From the human T2T-CHM13v2.0 reference genome, Homo sapiens, in NCBI RefSeq assembly GCF_009914755.1, contig NC_060926.1: 64,000 bases of DNA. One strand, given 5' to 3'. Below the pieces are notes generated by a model. It saw only the letters and a list, made by a program, of their open reading frames with translations, did not search any database and was not told the DNA's origin. Below, in pieces: positions 1,157-59,250 of this stretch; the stretch's first letter is position 1, and the number at the start of each line of letters is the position of its first letter. The position numbers were made by a program, and so were the translations under genes.

Positions 1157-3984
1157 CATGATGAACAAAGAAATTAATATACATGTTGGTAGACAGAAAC
1201 AACACCCAAGTGTTATTTCAAGAATTAAAAAGAAATATGTTATTTATTAAAAGAATCAGGGATTGCTTTATTAACTGATATGAAATAATCTTCAAGACAG
1301 AATAAATGGCAAAGCAAGGAGTTGGAAGAAAACAACAGATGGCAGTATGTTTTAAACTCTCTATGATTTGCTAGATACTTCTGGGGCCATGGGCATCCCA
1401 GCGAGCCAGCAGCTGGCTGCTTCTCTGGTCCGAGACCCCCACATCCACCGCACCTGAGGCCTCTCTGAATGCTGATGGGAGCCTGTGGGGCAGTTCACAT
1501 GCCACCCCCAAGCACACAGAGGTCACCCCTGTCATACTGCTAAAGAGAAGTGCACAACAGGCCCAGGGGTACGACCTTCCCAGGCCATGAGTGCAGGCAT
1601 GAGAGGCACAGTCTGAACGAGACCACATCACTCACTGGCGGTGCACCTGTTTCTGGAAAAAAACCCTGACTAGGATGATTCACCAACTGCCTTCGCTGAA
1701 CAAATGTTTCAGAATCTGAGAAGCAGAGCCCCAAGGAAGCCACAAGAGCCTGGGGTCAGAAGGCGGCAGCCTCGCCTGGCTCTGCTGGCAGCTGGGTTTC
1801 CTGGGGCACCTGGCTTTGCCCTGGGAGCCTAGCCGTACCCACCTGGGAGGGAGGGTGTGCCTTTCCCACGGGGTGGCCCAGGGCTCGGCTGAGCCAATGG
1901 CATGAATAAGGCAAGCCGGGGCCCGATGAACGTTCCTCCCCTTCCCCAGGGGTTGGGAGGCACCCCCATGCAGCTCAGAAACTGGGGCCCAGGTCCCCTG
2001 CCCTCAGAACCTGCTCTGCAGAGCCCAGGTGTCCAGCGAGTGAAACTCAGCTGTTCTGCCCCTCAGCTACAATACGGAAGTCTTTTCTCAATTTTACACA
2101 CAAAGTTAATTATCGTAGACAGCCTGGACTTTTTTTCATTCATGAAACTCCCTTAAATTTGGTTCATACCACAGTTTATGTGCATAGGCAGAAAACAAGT
2201 CGAAACTGCAATCTTGAAATCAGACGCTAGCCCCCAGCCAGCCAGCCCAGACTTGGCCCGGGACTGCCCTTCTGCCTACAGGGCTTTCCCAGAGAGACTG
2301 CCTGGCTCACAGGATGGGACTCAGAACCAGGGCCTGACAGCCTCCCCAAAGCGTGCCTGTGCCCTGCAGGCCCTCGGAAACCCACAGCAAGCCTAGAGAC
2401 ACCCTGGCCAAATTCATGGGCATGGCCAAGCCCTGCCTGGTTCCTGGCCCACACTGCTCCCTGCAAGCTAACATCCAGCAGAGGCCCCTGGACAGTCTCT
2501 GGACAGTCTTCCTTCCCATGCTCTCCCCGCATACACACCATCCAGGGGCCTGGGGTGGCTGCCATTTCTTCTGAATGTCTGTACAGGCCCATGCCTGGCC
2601 CTGTCCACAAGGCCCCTCACTGCACATCCCTCCACATCTGCCAGTGACTGGTCCCCGCCCTGAGCAATGTAAGCTGGATGACACGCTGAAAGCCACACAT
2701 TCCCACCATCCACCTATAGCAGGGGCTCAATCAATACTTGCCAAATGCCTGAATCAGCCCTGAAATGACTGGAGGCCCAAGTTCTTTCTTCTAGCCACCC
2801 TGGAGGAGCCCTGGCGCTGGCCCAAGTGTGCTCCCCGGTAACCCAGGACTGTGGGGAACCCAGCTCCCAGGCTTCTGGCCTCTTCACGGGTACCCCAGAT
2901 GAAAAATGTTCTACAAAAACAAGGGCAGGATGAATGTAGTCCGGGACCTCCTGACGATCTCAAACGCTGCTGAAAAGGCCTTAAGATGAGGTTTGCTGTG
3001 AGCAACAGGAAGCATTCTGTAAGGCATTCTGTCCTTGAGATCTGGACAGTGAGGTACTTGCTGTCCAGCCCCTGAGTTTCCCAGACCTGAATGTAACACT
3101 GTGCAAGCCTCACACACAGGGATCTTTCTTAACCCCTACAGAATGCCCACTGGAAGGAGGCAAATACTCCCAACGAGGAAAACATCCTATCCATGAGAGT
3201 GGGGAGCTGGTGGGGGAGGAAAAAGAAACACCAAACATTTCAGGAAATAAATCACATCTGTGCCCGGCATCCTCCCCCAGCGAGCACAGCACACATCCGA
3301 ACTGCCAGGCTCGGCACCTCTGAGAAAAGGACTTTGTCGGGTGCAGCCATACGCCTGACCTCTCGGGCGCCCGCTGGCCCTCTTTATCTCCAGCAGCCCA
3401 GCCCGGAGCTCAGAGGGCAGGCCAGCCCTGGCCAAGAGTCAGGAGCGGTGGAGCTGGGCTTGGTGTTTATGTCTGATCCAGACAACTGGGGGTTTATGAC
3501 GATTTACTGACGCAAGAGCTCCCCGAAGCAGCATGCCAGAAATTAATCAAGGGAGGAGGAATTCTTTTTAAGAAACCACTTGGCTGCTGCGAACCTGCCT
3601 GAAAGGCTGGGAGTGTAAGCTGAGCTCCTTCCTCCAGGCCCAGGCCACCAGGCAGCAGCAGCACACCCAGGACCCACAGGCAGAGCCCAGGGCCAACTCC
3701 TGGCCCCAGATGGAGGCAGGCGGCATGGAAGGTCCTGCAATGCCAACCCCCCACATCCCCCCCAGTGCAGCTACCTCCCCACCAGCCGATCCTGGGCTAG
3801 CCCACTCCCAGAAGGACTCAGAAGGGGTCCACGGGGACCCCACCAGCTGTGCAGACCCCAAAGGCGGGTCCTCCTATTGGAATGACAGGAACCCTCCATT
3901 ATCTGCTAGTAAAATTCCTTTCTCAGGAGTTGAGTTTTATGGTTTACCATCACTCATCACCAAAAGAGAAAAAAAGGTAAAACA

Positions 3985-4720
3985 TACAAGTTTGATTCTG
4001 CCCCGTCATCTCAGTGAGACAGGCACAGCCTCTGCAGCAGCAGCTTGGGCTGGGAGGGCAGGGGCCACGTCGGGCCAGCAGCTCCTCTCCAGCTTTCTGC
4101 ACACCCCTCCTCCCACCGGGACACCCCTCCTCCTTGCTCCCCCATTCCTGCTCCGGCTGGGGGAGGGAAGCTGGCATCACACAGACACCCGTGCTCCATT
4201 TGTTTTGTGATCTGATGTCCAAGTTATTCTGAAATTTCAAACACTGAAGGACACAGGTTATTTATATTTATCAAAAAGGGCATGAGTCTGACAAGGCTGA
4301 CTAAACTAAACCTTGCCAGACACTCAGGGCCTGGGCTGGGCTACAAAGGGTTCTGGATCCCAACAGGAGGACAGCAGCTGACATCCCTGGGCAGGAACAG
4401 GCGCTGGGCTCCGTGCCTGCCTCACTGGATCTTCACGACAACCCTATAAGGTGAAGTCTCTTAGGAGCCCCATGTCTCAGAGAAGGGAGCAGAAGCCTAG
4501 TGGGAGGCGGCCACGGGTGTCTGTGTGATGCCAGCTTCCCTCCCCCAGCCGGAGCAGGAATGGGGGAGCAAGGAGGAGGGGTGTCCTGGTGGGAGGAGGG
4601 GTGTGCAGAAAGCTGGAGAGGAGCTGCTGGCCCGACGTGGCCCCTGCCCTCCCAGCCCAAGCTGCTGCTGCAGAGGCTGTGCCTGTCTCACTGAGATGAC
4701 GGGGCAGAATCAAACTTGTA
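3985..4720. repeat. Long inverted repeat: arms 3985-4193 and 4512-4720 (209 bp, 208/209 identical), 318-bp spacer
   Basis: tacaagtttgattctg...acagacacccgtg is the reverse complement of cacgggtgtctgt...cagaatcaaacttgta. The only mismatch is G4118 vs T4587. The ORF track shows the same peptides on opposite strands. Confidence 0.97.
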
Positions 4721-7700
4721 GGGGCCTGGATCAGCGGCCACAGAGCCGATGGCCGGAGGCCGTATGCAGGCCAGGTACAGCTGCCTGGAGAGCCATGGGA
4801 GAGCCACAGGAGAGCCAGAGGGACACTGGGAGTGGTGCCAAGTGGCCCAACTGCCAGCTTTCCATAGGAGCATCGGGAAGGGGAGGTCCAACCAGGCCCC
4901 AGGGGGACCCTGTGCCAAAGGAAGAGATGCCTCACAGGAGACCCCGCGAGGGAGTGGCAGCTGCTAACCCTGCCTGGTTCCAAAGGCCTGAGCGAGGGCC
5001 ACTGGGGCCTGCAGCCAGCAACCTGGCAATCAGGACTGCAAGAGGGCGACAGGAAGGAGTGTGGCTCACCAAGGACACCTGAACTCTGGCCCCACCGAAC
5101 ACTGGCCTGGACTTCCGCTCCAAGAAGCTCTTCTCCACCAACACTGAACAGGCTGCCAGTGACCACGCACAGTGGTTGAAGGCAGCCACGTGGCAGAAGT
5201 GGCACAGGTCAGCCAACCTTCACACTCTGTTTTCTTATCTCAGAGGAGGATGCTGATTCTGACAAACAAAATGGCTGCTTCCCCATAATGCTAACATCCC
5301 CTGGTCATGAGGCCTGGCCTTCTACAGGGAGAAAAATCGCTGGCTTCCTTACTAGACTATCTGTAATTCAATGTGTCAATACAAGTATATTTATCTTTAA
5401 ATGTTTTAAGTGAGCAATTATACTGAATAAAATATACTTTTAAACGTAGTATACTAAACGTGGTATTTGTAACCCAACCACTTTGGTTTAATGTGGCAAA
5501 AGAGATCTCACCCTCAGCCTTCTCCATCCCAAAAAGGCCACTGAAGAGGACAGGCTGTGCTGCCACCCCAGCCCCACATGCCACGCTGCTGACACAGACC
5601 TGCTGCCCTGTGCGTGCGCATTCCCAACCTGCCTGACCTTGGCTGCCCGAAATTCGGAGTGGGGAGGAAGGCAGATATGCCTGAATACAGCCCAGAGGAC
5701 ATACTGAGAGAGCGGCCAAGTGAAGCTCTCAGCCTGCCCAGGAGGAAGCGGGGCTGATGGGCCATCGGAGCAAAGCGCGGCCAGCACTGTCGTGACATTG
5801 ATGGCACGAAACTCAACGTCCTGCACATGATTCCTAAAGCTAAATCTGGAATGAATTCTTCCTTCATATTCGAGGGGAAAACGGTAAAAGCCACGAGAAG
5901 GAGGCAGGATGGGGGAGGGAAGACAAGCAGGAAGGGGTGGGGTGGCCCTGCCCACTGCATTTCTGGTCAGGGAGATTTTAGAGCATTTATAAGGTGCGAC
6001 ATAAATCACCTCATAAAATATCTGAATAAAAGTGCTATAAGAGCTGCTCAAGGCTGCAGATATATTTCAGTCCACTTTAAAATATGCCCAACAGTTATTT
6101 TACTGCAACATAAAGATGAATGCAAGCCTGGAAAGCAAGCTGGGACTCGTGAACTAAGCCGCCCAGATAGTGAGTTCTACGGGGGAAGCCTTCAGGAAGC
6201 ACACACGGGCCAGGTGAGCGAACTGCAATGACACGTCGCCAGGGCTGCACTGGACCCACCGTGCGGGGACTGCCAGGTAAACCTCAGCTTCCACTCTGGG
6301 CTACAGCGGGCCATACTAACCCTCCAGCCAGGAACACAGAGGACAGGATGCAATCTAAAACACGGCGATGCACGAGGAGCCCAGGCCTGGGAGAGAAGGG
6401 AGGTGGAAAGAGGGCACACTCGGCCCGCGTGTCCTCCAGAGGCTGAGGAGCGGAGCAGCACCGGACGGCTCGGACCCTGGGAAACGAACGCCAGACTGAG
6501 CGTGGGGGTGAGGAGAGCCCCGTGCCAGGAGTGAGGGCAACACGGACCTGACCAGTCCTCACAGAATCCGCAGCTTGAGCGTAAGAAGGGATACAAGAGG
6601 GAAAGGTGGACATTTCACAGTAACAAAAAGGCAGTTATTCCAATTTTATGGAATAATTTTATGCATAAAATTCTAAATCTGCCTAGGCTTAAAATAGCTT
6701 CAAAATAAACAAAGGCTAAACCTGACAGAGCTAAAAAGAGAAACAATGCCAATCCACAGTTACATCAGGGGGATTTTAATATTCCATTCCCACTATCTGA
6801 CAGAAAAGCAGACAATAAAATAGTAAAGATAACAGGAGATCTGAGCACAATGATTAATTTGATTAAATGGACATGTAGAACTGGCAAATCTCCACGGCTG
6901 ACTTCTTCTCTTCAAGTATACATAAAATGTTGACAAAACTGACCATATAATCAATAAAGCAAAATTCAAAGAATTTCTAAAAACTGAAATTACATAAAAT
7001 GAGTGACCACAGTGAAATTAAACTAGAAATCAATAACAAAATGAAAGCAAAATACTAGCAAATTCATAAAGCACTGAAATTTAGAAATATATTTCTAATT
7101 AACACAAGTCAAAAAAAGAAACTAGATAATATTCTAAACCAAATTATAATTAAAATGACATTAAAAAGCTCACATAATCTAGCGAAAGCCATACATAGGT
7201 GGAAATTTATAGTTTTAAGCACGTGGATTACAGAAGAAAGTCTGAAAAAAAAAAATCAGTGATCTAAATATTTACCTTAATCAGTAAAAACAACAACCCC
7301 AGCAAATTAAATCCCAAAAACAAAAATAATAGCAATAAGAACAGAAATTTATTTTTTTAAATTCAATTTTAAAAAATCAAGAAAACCAAACACAGTTCTT
7401 AAAAAATATTAATATAATAAATAAGCTCCTAGCAAAGTCCAATGAAGGAAAAATGAGAGAATAAACAATATCAGGAATTTAAAAGAGGATGACACTACAA
7501 ATCCTACAGTCATTACAAAGATAATGAGAAGGTATTTAAACAACTTTATTTCAATACATTTGAAGATGCAGATGGAATGTAAAAAATTCCAAGAAAAACT
7601 AAACACACAAAAACTGACACAAGAAAATCTTAAAAATCTAAACAGTCCTATATCAGTTGAGGGTGTAATTTACAAATCTTCCCACAAAGAAAACTCCAAG

Positions 7701-19883: not shown

Positions 19884-20167
19884 GGCCGGATACAATGGCT
19901 CATACCTGTAATCCAGGACTTTGGGAGGCCGAGGGGGCAGGATTGCTTGAGTCCAGGAGTTGGAGACCAGCCTGGACAACATGGTGAGATTCGGTCTCCA
20001 CAAAAAATTTTAAAAATTAGCTGGGCGTGGTGGCATACAGAGGTGCATGCCAGAGGTGGTCCCAGCTACTCGGGAGCCTGAGGTGGGAGGATCGCTGAAG
20101 CCCAGGAAGCTGAGGCTGAGGTGCATACCACCACACTCCAGCCTGGGCGACAGCAAGACCCTGTCTA
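19884..20167 (+). mobile_element. AluJ element whose tail runs into a CA-rich array
   Basis: AluJ-type ggattgcttgagtccaggagtt and gcccaggaagctgaggctg; ends gcaagaccctgtct. Confidence 0.9.
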
Positions 20168-22134: not shown

Positions 22135-22430
22135 TTTTTTTTTGTTTTGAGACAACAGTCTTGCTCTGTCGGCCAGGCTACAGTGCAGTGGCACCATCTC
22201 GGCTCACTGCAACCTCACCTCCCGGATTCAAGCGATTCTCCTGCCTCAGCCTCCCGAGTAGCTGGGACTACAGGCGCGTGCCACCACGCCTGGCTAATTT
22301 TTGTGTTTTTAGTAGAGACGGGGTTTGACCATGCTGACCAGGCTGATCGCGAACTCCTGACCTCAAATGATCTGCCCACCTCGGCCTCTCAAAGCACGAG
22401 GATTACAGGTTTGAGCCACCGCACCCGGCC
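22135..22430 (-). mobile_element. AluS element
   Basis: T-tract followed by antisense Alu body ending gagccaccgcacccggcc. Confidence 0.95.
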
Positions 22431-27293: not shown

Positions 27294-27315
27294 CTGGATG
27301 GCTTTGGGAGCTCAT
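27294..27315 (-). CDS. HDAC4: Histone deacetylase 4, first 22 coding nt (ATG AGC TCC CAA AGC CAT CCA G; phase-1 intron follows)
   Basis: Translation MSSQSHP + G matches the recalled HDAC4 N-terminus MSSQSHPDGLSGRDQ. Kozak context is GCTAGCA-ATG-A (purine at -3). Confidence 0.95.
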
Positions 27316-27335
27316 TGCTAGCAATGTCCACTCCT

Positions 27336-27410
27336 TTAAGTGATTCGAAATGGCTCAAAATTTCCACGGAAACGATAGCTCCAACGAGCTCCAAACTCCC
27401 ACCAACACAT
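27336..27410 (-). promoter_or_regulatory. uORF2 in HDAC4 5'UTR (MCWWEFGARWSYRFRGNFEPFRIT*, 24 aa)
   Basis: ATG at 27410-27408 and TAA at 27338-27336, ending 20 nt before the main ATG. Weak context (T at -3). Confidence 0.6.
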
Positions 27411-27437
27411 ACAAGTACCGGGACGGTGAGGGCTGGG

Positions 27438-27479
27438 TCACAGACGTTCAAGCGCCGAGCCTCGCCGGCAAGGTCTCAT
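27438..27479 (-). promoter_or_regulatory. uORF1 in HDAC4 5'UTR (MRPCRRGSALERL*, 13 aa)
   Basis: ATG at 27479-27477 and TGA at 27440-27438, both inside the exon. Weak context (C at -3). Translation is not demonstrated. Confidence 0.6.
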
Positions 27480-27627
27480 GAGCCAGGTAACCCACAAGTT
27501 GAACAGAGGCGTCCGCTGGCTTCTGCAGATGAACCTGCAAGGTCAGAAGGAGAAAAGAGACTGGAGTTACAACATGGAAGTTCCGATCTGGAAAACAACA
27601 TCCAACTAGGGAAATGATGACTTCCTC

Positions 27628-27964
<337 letters not shown>

Positions 27965-30899: not shown

Positions 30900-32690
<1,791 letters not shown>

Positions 32691-57317: not shown

Positions 57318-57613
<296 letters not shown>

Positions 57614-58929
57614 AACAGCTTACACTTTCTAACAACTCAAGTGAAGTGTTCATTTCACTGTGTAACTGCCCACGTTACAGGCATGGTTGGCTTAATACCC
57701 AGTGTTCTCCAACACGGTCTCACAGTCCAGTTCACGGATCTCACCCCGCTCACCCAAAGGCTCCCGTTGTCGAGGAAGATGTGCTTGTTTCCCGTGGCCA
57801 CCCCTGACCCTGGCTCCAGCCCACAGGGGGAATCCTCCACCATGATGCCCCTCACAAGCAGGAGGCCCTGGCACTGCTCTGAGCCCTGCACCTTCCCGTA
57901 AAGTGCATAACCACTGAGCAGATCCTCGCTTGGAGGCTGGACAAACGTCAGTGTCTGTGAGTTCAGAATCTGAAAGAAGGATAAAGCTGCCTCTCGGGAG
58001 ATGGAGCAGGGCTTGGAAACAGATCTGATGACATGTGGGCAGGCAGGGGCAGGGGTGGCAGAGGTCGGCTTCTTAAGCACTCAGCCGGAACAGGTGCCTC
58101 CTCAACTGGCTCCTCTGAGCGCCACAGAGAAACCCACGGCAAGCGCAGTCTGGGCCACAATGAAGCAACAAGGAAGCAGTTAGTTTTGCAAACCCAATAC
58201 GCTCAAAGAGCGCCCGATCAATCCATTACCATTTATTCCCTCTCTGTACCTGGTGGGAGAAAGCGCGGCAACGACACCGCCTCAGCAGCTCTCACTCAAG
58301 GGCGTGGGGTGGGGGGCAGGGTAGAGCACTGCCTCGGGCCAGCTGATGGCCCCTCCCTCAACGATGGCCGGGGCAGGAATGGACAACAGAGACTGGAAAG
58401 TGAGAAAAATGATACAAAGTGGAAACAGGATGCAGACAGGATGAAGCTCATCCACACAGTCCCACAGAGTCCCCCAGACAGCATCAGCCCCGCCAACAAG
58501 GCCAGACAAGGACAGACGTGAGAGCCACTGGAGGGCAGGGCGGCTGGAAGAGCTGCCATCGCTGGCACCTGGGCACCGTGCGAGAGGCCTACTGACGTGA
58601 GTAACGAGGCGCAGTCCACTCTCGCCTCTAATGGGAAGCCACGAACAGCCCGGACACAGACAGAGAAGCAGCTCGTGGGCAACCCTCCATCGTGCTCTGC
58701 AAAGGCAGAAAACCCAGGGGGACCTGGCTGCACACCACATCGATGGGAAAGACACCCAGGCTAATATTAGGGGATGCCCAGATCCCAGGTCCTCTGTATC
58801 AGCTGTTCGTAATCTGGGATACCTGCGTGGGCTGAAAAGATCCATGATCTCCCTAAAGCCACATTCGAAATGACATATTTTAGTACCTCTCTCTATCATA
58901 TGGAAATGTTTAATGAAAAAGAAAACTGA

Positions 58930-59250
58930 GGCTAGGCATGGTGGCTTACACCTGTAATCCCAGAACTTTTGGTGGCCTAGGTGGGAGGATCCCTTGAGAC
59001 CAGGAGCTCAAGACCAGCCTGGACAACATAGTGAGACCCCTGTCTCTACAAAAAAAAAAAAAAAAAAGCCAGATGTGGTGGTGCACGCCTGTAGTCCCAG
59101 CTACTCAGGAGGCTGAGGCAGGCAGATGGAGAGAGCCCAAGAGGTCAAGGCGGCAGTGAGCCATGATTGTCCCACTGCACTCCGGCCTGCACAACAGATC
59201 AAGGCTCTATCTCAGAAAAAGGCAAAGGAAACGGAAGAAAAGAAAGAGAA
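58930..59250 (+). mobile_element. AluJ element
   Basis: ggaggatcccttgagaccaggag, gcccaagaggtcaaggc, expanded middle A-run, purine-rich tail, gaaaactg on both flanks. Confidence 0.9.

What the first reader, a model, noticed from the sequence alone, without database searches (positions are those of the whole stretch)
3985..4720. Near-perfect 209-bp inverted duplication of non-repetitive sequence in an HDAC4 intron
Seen: two 209-bp arms in opposite orientation, differing at one base (a CpG-type transition, G4118/T4587), around a 318-bp spacer. The arms resemble no transposon I recognise. Inference: such identity means either a very recent duplication (template switching) or continual arm-to-arm gene conversion. 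The structure is a substrate for recurrent inversion of the spacer and for hairpin-type instability. In the HDAC4 pre-mRNA it would form a ~209-bp almost perfect dsRNA stem, much better paired than typical Alu-Alu duplexes.
Basis: partly seen in the sequence, partly recalled or inferred. Interest (0 to 1): 0.8.

Follow-up and report, generated by a model that had tools for sequence, protein, structure and literature searches.

The report
Young inverted duplication in HDAC4 intron
A 209-base stretch of single-copy DNA inside a human HDAC4 intron is present twice, in opposite orientation and almost identical, most likely a fairly recent copying accident of a known kind with no shown function.

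Summary
Arms 3985-4193 and 4512-4720 are reverse complements at 208 of 209 bases. The one difference is G4118/T4587, a CpG in the left arm and CpA in the right. The spacer is 318 bp.

It is not a young transposon. The arm, the spacer and all four junctions match only this locus in the 3.1-Gb assembly. There is no target-site duplication, and identity falls to random at all four arm ends.

Without gene conversion, one difference fits an age near 3 My, with an upper bound near 15 My under assumed rates. No primate or population sequence was available. Recency versus conversion, which arm is the copy, and spacer inversion therefore stay open. A SINE-continuity test of polarity was inconclusive.

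The HDAC4-sense RNA is predicted to form the full stem with one A.C mismatch. It is intronic, so probably a nuclear ADAR substrate rather than an MDA5 ligand.

The 318-bp spacer and perfect tracts of 133 and 75 bp argue against strong cruciform or inversion activity. Similar near-perfect repeats exist: 2 of 656 in a 7-Mb human contig. Verdict: real, a new member of a known kind, modest interest.

The parts
3985..4193 (.). Left arm of the inverted duplication (209 bp, 64.6% G+C, 6 CpG). Carries the CpG state at 4117-4118.
4194..4511 (.). Unique spacer (318 bp, 50.6% G+C). No internal inverted symmetry: left half reverse-complemented against right half scores 9, and 56 of 200 shuffles score at least as high.
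4512..4720 (.). Right arm, reverse complement of the left arm at 208 of 209 positions. Carries T4587 (CpA in left-arm orientation).
4118..4118 (.). The only arm-to-arm difference (G here, T at 4587). In HDAC4-sense (minus-strand) RNA it is a C opposite an A. In plus-strand RNA it would be a G.U wobble.
4421..4496 (+). Old SINE fragment inside the spacer (core of the MIR family; the name is recalled). It aligns to positions 27-103 of a 195-nt consensus that I derived from 20 genomic copies. It ends 15 nt before the right arm.
4562..4601 (+). G-quadruplex-type motif (four G runs) in the right arm. Its mirror is the C-rich tract 4104-4143 in the left arm. A second pair lies at 4047-4074 (+) and 4631-4658 (C-rich on +). 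Each strand therefore carries two such tracts inside the arms.
   Evidence: regular-expression scan only
3744..3961 (-). Upper ends of exons of other HDAC4 transcripts in the hub's table (3744, 3745, 3748, 3750, 3961). None is preceded by an AG acceptor on the minus strand, so I read them as alternative transcription starts. The nearest lies 24 nt from the left arm.
   Evidence: hub annotation given with the finding; sequence read; the reading as start sites is my inference

Best explanation
This is a single, evolutionarily young, local inverted duplication of single-copy intronic DNA. During replication or repair of a break, a DNA end switched template or folded back on its own strand about 320 bp away. 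It copied 209 bases in reverse orientation and then rejoined the original track. That left arm - 318-bp spacer - reverse-complement arm.

Since then, one CpG in one arm has mutated by the commonest type of human substitution. The structure is most likely a neutral passenger.

In long HDAC4 pre-mRNAs the two arms should pair into a 209-bp duplex with one A.C mismatch. That duplex would be edited by ADAR in the nucleus and removed with the intron.

At the DNA level the long spacer keeps it fairly stable. It could fold back only when the region becomes single-stranded.

Shown: the anatomy, the single-copy status, the sharp ends and the predicted folds. Inferred: the mechanism, the age, neutrality and editing.
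For: The arms match at 208 of 209 bases, with abrupt ends at all four junctions. Flanks show no residual inverted similarity: reverse-complemented 3385-3984 against 4721-5320 scores 11, and 153 of 200 shuffles score at least as high. This fits one discrete event better than a decayed larger palindrome.

The arm, the spacer and the four junction-spanning queries match only this locus in the 3.1-Gb assembly. NCBI's list of masked stretches of 100 bp or more, supplied by the hub, holds nothing here.

The only difference is CpG against CpA. Under assumed rates (0.5e-9 per site per year, CpG ten-fold higher), the most likely age is about 3 My. P(at most 1 difference) is 0.39 at 6.5 My, 0.05 at 15 My and 0.003 at 25 My.

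The published four-point template-switch model for great-ape genomes states that its two majority patterns, 3-2-1-4 and 1-4-3-2, create single inverted repeats from sequence tens to hundreds of bases away (PMC7954356, passages). This layout fits either pattern.

Fold predictions: RNA minus strand -616.9 against -309.4 (sd 8.7) kcal/mol, z -35.5. DNA plus strand -363.5 against -141.2, z -33.5.
Against: No outgroup or second human haplotype was available, so absence of one arm in an ancestor is not shown.

There is no microhomology at the outer junction (the first flanking position does not pair) and none visible just inside the arms. Fold-back junctions in patients showed 2-8 bp in 13 of 21 cases (PMC3907307, passages). 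In a fold-back, however, the priming microhomology would lie inside the arms and be invisible here.

A 209-bp copy is longer than the short events for which the template-switch model was developed.

One difference in 209 does not exclude an age as old as the human-chimpanzee split. Gene conversion could make an older repeat look young.

The test meant to show which arm was inserted was inconclusive. It asked whether the SINE fragment in the spacer continues into the right arm or resumes beyond it. Scores were 8 and 9, and 187 and 94 of 300 shuffles scored at least as high.
Confidence: 0.55

Rival explanations
1. This is an older inverted repeat, predating the great apes, whose arms are kept nearly identical by recurrent arm-to-arm gene conversion, as in sex-chromosome palindromes. 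The apparent youth would then be an illusion.
For: Identity of 208 of 209 is what conversion produces. The arms are G+C-rich (64.6% against 49.1% for the window), the direction expected from GC-biased conversion (established knowledge, not tested here). The one difference keeps a CpG in one arm.
Against: The arms are only 209 bp, and are now split into perfect tracts of 133 and 75 bp. Known conversion-maintained palindromes have arms of kilobases (PMC8327919, abstract seen in the listing). There is no zone of decaying identity at the arm edges or in the flanks. An old repeat with edge-limited conversion would tend to leave such a zone.
Confidence: 0.2
2. This is a small inversion made by staggered breaks. 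A 527-bp segment (one arm plus spacer) was inverted, and fill-in of a 209-nt staggered end duplicated that end in inverted orientation. The spacer is then inverted relative to the ancestor.
For: The layout, an inverted duplication flanking a unique segment with blunt junctions lacking microhomology, is what this model predicts. The model is recalled from Drosophila inversion breakpoints, not from a call.
Against: No data on ancestral orientation. A 209-nt stagger is long. The SINE fragment in the spacer gives no orientation information.
Confidence: 0.12
3. This is a non-autonomous DNA transposon (MITE-like) with 209-bp terminal inverted repeats.
For: Overall shape only: a 736-bp unit with terminal inverted repeats.
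Against: Only the two arms match in the whole assembly (2 of 2 matches). Junction and spacer queries find nothing else. The flanks ...AAAACA and GGGGCC... give no target-site duplication. Human DNA transposons are ancient (established knowledge), so their ends would not be 99.5% alike. The spacer carries an unrelated old SINE fragment. Caveat: the genome search skips very common words and may miss copies diverged by 25-30%.
Confidence: 0.03
4. This is an assembly artefact, or a rare private structural variant of the CHM13 genome, not the common human state.
For: Only one assembly was examined. No paper mentioning this repeat was found.
Against: A fold-back read artefact would give a spacer-less, perfectly identical palindrome. 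Here there is a 318-bp unique spacer and one arm difference. The region is ordinary single-copy DNA.
Confidence: 0.05

Closest known systems
Long inverted repeats (LIRs) of unique sequence in human introns (Lirex: PMC5414712, passages and the whole of Table S1 read; Wang and Leung, FEBS J 2009, seen only as a citation, content recalled)
   Same: Stem over 30 bp, spacer under 2 kb, over 85% identity, located in a long intron, not derived from a common repeat. Table S1 lists close analogues in a 7.08-Mb contig: 308 bp with 0 mismatch and a 207-bp spacer, and 168 bp with 0.5% mismatch and a 1573-bp spacer.
   Different: This particular repeat was not found in print. It sits at the extreme of the class: only 4 of 656 listed LIRs have arms of 150 bp or more, and 2 of 656 also have 1% mismatch or less (my reading of the table).
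Short-range template-switch mutations in great apes, four-point model (PMC7954356, passages)
   Same: The mechanism makes a perfect reverse-complement copy of sequence lying tens to hundreds of bases away. Patterns 3-2-1-4 and 1-4-3-2 give a single inverted repeat, which is the layout seen here.
   Different: The copy here is 209 bp, longer than the mutation clusters that method targets. No ancestral sequence was available to place the four switch points. The supplements of that paper held no HDAC4 entry.
Fold-back inverted duplications next to terminal deletions (PMC3907307, passages and Table S1 search)
   Same: Inverted copy separated from its source by a normal-copy spacer, which corresponds to the fold-back loop.
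   Different: Those are megabase duplications with spacers of 766-70,466 bp, and they are pathogenic. This one is 209 bp, internal and rejoined to the original chromosome. None of the listed 2q cases has a breakpoint matching my estimated position (the estimate rests on recalled gene coordinates).
Inverted Alu pairs as intramolecular dsRNA and ADAR substrates (PMC12695637, passages)
   Same: Two inverted copies in one pre-mRNA that pair into a long duplex. The intronic location implies nuclear editing and no access to MDA5.
   Different: The arms are not Alu and are 99.5% paired. The Alu-type pairs in this same window are 74-83% paired. Editing here is not shown.
Conversion-maintained palindromes of the X and Y chromosomes (PMC8327919, abstract in the listing; otherwise recalled)
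   Same: Near-identical inverted arms around a unique spacer.
   Different: The arms here are 209 bp, not kilobases. The locus is autosomal, holds no gene in the arms, and conservation across species is untested.

Membership tests
DNA transposon / MITE | Several to many copies in the genome | tested here: not met
   Arm query: 2 matches, both at this locus. Queries for the spacer and the junctions hit only themselves and the other arm. The search may miss strongly diverged copies.
DNA transposon / MITE | Target-site duplication directly flanking the terminal inverted repeats | tested here: not met
   The flanks ...GGTAAAACA and GGGGCCTGG... share no direct repeat.
Template-switch / fold-back inverted duplication | Reverse-complement copy of nearby sequence on the same chromosome, with discrete ends | tested here: met
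   208 of 209 identity, 318 bp apart, no extension beyond either end.
Template-switch / fold-back inverted duplication | Ancestral or outgroup sequence lacking the copy | not testable with these tools
   No primate genome or second human haplotype is held. The own-genome tool states that the assembly has no relatives here.
Template-switch / fold-back inverted duplication | Microhomology at the switch points | tested here: inconclusive
   None at the outer junction, and none just outside the inner ends. Priming microhomology at the inner switch would lie inside the arms and cannot be seen without the ancestor.
Conversion-maintained palindrome | Arms present in several species and more alike within than between species | not testable with these tools
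   No orthologous sequences available.
Conversion-maintained palindrome | Long arms (kilobases) giving ample uninterrupted homology | tested here: not met
   209-bp arms, with perfect tracts of 133 and 75 bp.
Inversion polymorphism mediated by inverted repeats | Both spacer orientations found among haplotypes | not testable with these tools
   One assembly only. No paper linking HDAC4 with a small polymorphic inversion: 1 paper held both terms and, judged from its title and the start of its abstract, it was unrelated.
Intramolecular dsRNA substrate of ADAR (IRAlu-like) | Both arms in one transcript and a stable predicted duplex | tested here: met
   Intronic in the selected HDAC4 transcript (hub table). 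Full stem in the MFE and centroid structures, z -35.5.
Intramolecular dsRNA substrate of ADAR (IRAlu-like) | Observed A-to-I editing clusters or dsRNA capture | not testable with these tools
   No RNA data held. HDAC4 occurs 0 times in the main text of PMC12695637; its supplements were not examined.
Known structured RNA or microRNA family (Rfam) | Match to a covariance model at or above the gathering score | tested here: not met
   1 match in 3000-6000 at E <= 1, a nematode snoRNA model at 19.9 bits against a gathering score of 60, E 0.85.

The most novel reading that the evidence does not exclude
The repeat is a hominid-specific regulatory hairpin or switch, not a passenger. Its left arm begins 24 nt upstream of an annotated alternative HDAC4 start site. 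The arms carry mirrored G-quadruplex/i-motif tracts. Selection or conversion keeps them identical. The structure could then tune the choice of HDAC4 isoform in one of two ways. It could flip the 318-bp spacer between the arms. Or it could form a nuclear 209-bp dsRNA whose ADAR editing or Dicer processing feeds back on the locus.
Probability: 0.04. Interest if true: 0.75.

Novelty: new member of a known kind. Interest (0 to 1): 0.3.

Why it matters
HDAC4 is a dosage-sensitive gene: its loss underlies the 2q37 deletion syndrome (established knowledge, not from a call). A near-perfect 209-bp inverted repeat inside it is a possible fold-back site if a nearby break exposes single-stranded DNA. In yeast, inverted repeats in single-stranded DNA interact regardless of spacer length (PMC10164571).

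It is also a clean natural test case. Unique sequence, sharp ends and a single difference mean that primate and pangenome alignments could decide at once between recent template switching and conversion in very short arms. RNA data could show how cells treat an almost perfect non-Alu intronic duplex.

Taken alone, and without those data, it is one more example of a known class of structural mutation.

Tried and rejected
1. Polarity test by repeat continuity. I built a profile and a 195-nt consensus of the old SINE in the spacer, using 20 of the 26 genomic copies that carry a 22-nt core motif. The fragment maps to 4421-4496. I had thought by eye that the 3' part of the element resumed just beyond the right arm, which would have proved insertion of the right arm. 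That was not supported. The consensus tail scored 9 in 4721-4950 (94 of 300 shuffles as high) and 8 in the right arm (187 of 300). It was at noise level in the left arm, the left flank and the left part of the spacer, on both strands. Rejected as evidence either way.

2. Single-sequence nhmmer of the locus against the rest of the window gave no significant hit (best E 0.33).

3. Search for a larger decayed palindrome. Flank-to-flank inverted similarity is at noise level. One weak 38-nt inverted match between spacer 4382-4419 and flank 3677-3712 scored 16 (0 of 200 shuffles). It is G+C-rich and gapped, was one of seven comparisons, and I treat it as chance.

4. Rfam gave nothing.

5. Literature. 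No paper links HDAC4 with this repeat in three searches: 'HDAC4' with 'inverted repeat' and 'intron' (22 papers, 15 listed, none relevant by title or abstract); with 'polymorphic inversion' (1, unrelated); with 'inverted duplication' (7, all large cytogenetic events or reviews by title or abstract). Supplements are not covered by these searches.

6. Supplement look-ups in PMC7954356 and PMC3907307 found nothing. They used number prefixes for my estimated GRCh38/GRCh37 position. The estimate comes from recalled gene coordinates, so this negative is weak.

7. Wang and Leung (FEBS J 2009) is not held. Whether HDAC4 is in their list of intronic repeats is unknown.

9. Loci could not be cut. I fetched 20 of the 26 places with the fetch from genomes instead.

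Full report
**Observation.**
- The arms are 3985-4193 and 4512-4720, 209 nt each, with 318 nt between them.
- They are reverse complements at 208 of 209 positions. The exception is G4118 against T4587.
- In left-arm orientation the two arms read CCACCGGGACA and CCACCAGGACA. The left arm keeps a CpG and the right has CpA, the signature of the commonest human substitution.
- The repeat stops abruptly. Of the next 14 positions, 2 pair on the outside and 3 on the inside, and the first position does not pair at either end.
- The arm alignment scores 207, against a shuffle maximum of 14.
- Seven inverted pairs of 40 nt or more lie within 5 kb in the 64-kb window. The other six are 74-83% identical.

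**Is it a repeat family?**
- A search of the whole 3.1-Gb assembly with the arm finds two places, which are the two arms.
- Queries spanning the right inner junction (4380-4620), the left inner junction (4150-4450), the left outer junction (3700-4030) and the right outer junction (4680-5000) each find only themselves and the short overlap with the other arm.
- The tool warns that it skips very common words, so strongly diverged old copies could be missed. A young family is excluded.
- The flanks share no direct repeat, so there is no target-site duplication.
- The hub's list of masked stretches of 100 bp or more has nothing between 595 and 8815.
- Rfam gives one chance-level match (E 0.85).

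**Anatomy.**
- The arms are G+C-rich (64.6%). The spacer is 50.6% and the window 49.1%.
- Each arm has 6 CpG and two runs that fit a G-quadruplex pattern, one on each strand.
- Each arm also has an imperfect 20-nt direct repeat (D4).
- The spacer has no internal symmetry.
- The spacer carries a fragment of an old SINE at 4421-4496. I identified it through a 22-nt core motif with 26 exact genomic matches and 0 in the reversed control. A profile and consensus built from 20 of those copies confirmed it. The family name, MIR, is recalled.
- The flanks show no trace of a larger, decayed palindrome.

**Origin.** The layout is that of a local inverted duplication.
- The four-point template-switch model for great-ape genomes says its majority patterns produce single perfect inverted repeats from sequence tens to hundreds of bases away (PMC7954356, passages). 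This locus fits 3-2-1-4 if the right arm is new, and 1-4-3-2 if the left arm is new.
- A fold-back at a resected break followed by rejoining gives the same picture on a small scale. In patients, fold-back duplications leave a normal-copy spacer at the loop (PMC3907307, passages).
- I tried to decide which arm is the copy. The test asked whether the SINE fragment, which ends 15 nt before the right arm, continues into that arm or resumes beyond it. Neither is supported, so polarity remains open.
- A staggered-break inversion that duplicated one end is a third way to get this layout. It cannot be separated from the others without an outgroup.

**Age.** I assumed 0.5e-9 substitutions per site per year and a ten-fold higher rate at the 12 CpG positions. 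Two unconverted arms would then accumulate 0.32 differences per My.
- One difference gives a most likely age of about 3 My.
- P(at most 1 difference) is 0.39 at 6.5 My, 0.05 at 15 My and 0.003 at 25 My.
- So the event either happened within the great-ape lineage (not necessarily human-specific), or an older repeat is being homogenised. No tool here could separate these.
- The short arms, now split into perfect tracts of 133 and 75 bp, and the absence of any edge zone of lower identity make me favour youth. This is inference.

**Consequences for DNA.** Yeast Alu inverted-repeat data are the best available guide (PMC10164571, passages).
- Lengthening the spacer from 12 to 20 bp cuts recombination about 40-fold, and from 12 to 100 bp 300-fold.
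- Lengthening it from 12 to 200 bp cuts gross rearrangements about 20-fold.
- A 318-bp spacer therefore makes cruciform extrusion in duplex DNA unlikely.
- The same paper shows that in long single-stranded DNA, repeats anneal regardless of spacer. The locus could therefore act as a fold-back site after a nearby resected break.
- As single-stranded DNA the region is predicted to form the full hairpin: -363.5 against -141.2 kcal/mol for shuffles.
- Inversion of the spacer by exchange between the arms is possible in principle. The perfect tracts are short relative to the roughly 130-230 bp said to be needed for efficient mammalian exchange (recalled, not from a call).

**Consequences for RNA.**
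- By the hub's table the locus lies in the long intron downstream of the start-codon exon (27294-27534) of the selected HDAC4 transcript, which is on the minus strand.
- Folding the minus strand gives the complete 209-bp stem in both the minimum-energy and centroid structures: -616.9 against -309.4 (sd 8.7) kcal/mol, z -35.5.
- In this strand the single mismatch is an A opposite a C.
- Such a duplex is far better paired than the Alu-type pairs of the same window (74-83%).
- Recent work states that intronic dsRNAs are edited mainly by nuclear ADAR1 p110. It also states that they are not sensed by cytosolic MDA5, because they are removed by splicing (PMC12695637, passages).
- I therefore expect nuclear hyper-editing and no immune consequence. 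Editing was not tested.

**Context.** The hub lists other HDAC4 transcripts whose uppermost exon ends are 3744, 3745, 3748, 3750 and 3961.
- None of these positions is preceded by an AG on the minus strand.
- They also scatter by a few bases, as transcription starts do. I read them as alternative starts.
- The left arm then begins 24 nt upstream of the nearest one. For those transcripts the repeat is promoter-proximal, not intronic. This is the basis of the bold reading and is untested.

**How unusual is it?** Long inverted repeats in human introns are a described class (Lirex paper PMC5414712, passages).
- Its Table S1, which I read in full, lists 656 repeats in a 7.08-Mb human contig.
- By my reading, 4 have arms of 150 bp or more.
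- Two of those have 1% mismatch or less: 308 bp, 0 mismatch, 207-bp spacer; and 168 bp, 0.5% mismatch, 1573-bp spacer.
- Whether those two are transposon-derived is not stated.
- Such structures are therefore rare but not singular.
- I found no paper on this particular repeat. Supplements are outside those searches.

**Verdict.** This is a real, sharply bounded, near-perfect inverted duplication of single-copy DNA. The best explanation is a young template-switch or fold-back event (confidence 0.55). Conversion of an older repeat (0.2) and a staggered-break inversion (0.12) are the main rivals. It is a new member of a known kind, with no evidence of function, and of modest interest. Primate and pangenome alignments would settle its history in one step.

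Noticed in passing
window 3744-3961, minus strand: The hub's table gives upper exon ends of other HDAC4 transcripts at 3744, 3745, 3748, 3750 and 3961. None has an AG acceptor upstream on the minus strand, so they look like alternative transcription starts, 24-241 nt from the left arm.
   Followed up: partly
window 3571-3726, minus strand: Just downstream of the 3744-3750 start cluster, an ATG at 3726 opens a 52-codon frame (MPPASIWGQELALG...). A GT after codon 44 (...PFRQ) could serve as a splice donor. It may be an alternative coding first exon. This was not checked against any transcript.
   Followed up: no
window 4047-4074, 4104-4143, 4562-4601, 4631-4658: The arms carry mirrored G-quadruplex / C-rich tracts, two per strand. 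In single strands or RNA these would compete with the long hairpin (pattern scan only).
   Followed up: no
window 4421-4496, plus strand: The spacer holds an old SINE core fragment (MIR family, name recalled). It matches positions 27-103 of a 195-nt consensus derived from 20 genomic copies and ends 15 nt before the right arm.
   Followed up: yes
window 27720-27926 with 32220-32455; 57434-57616 with 58941-59120; 20056-20107 with 22220-22271: Ordinary inverted repeat pairs of 52-105 nt at 74-83% identity lie inside stretches that the hub lists as masked repeats. They are probably inverted Alu pairs. They served as the comparison for pairing quality.
   Followed up: no
window 3677-3712 and 4382-4419: A weak gapped 38-nt inverted match links the left flank and the spacer (score 16; 0 of 200 shuffles as high). 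It is G+C-rich and was one of seven comparisons, so it is probably chance.
   Followed up: partly
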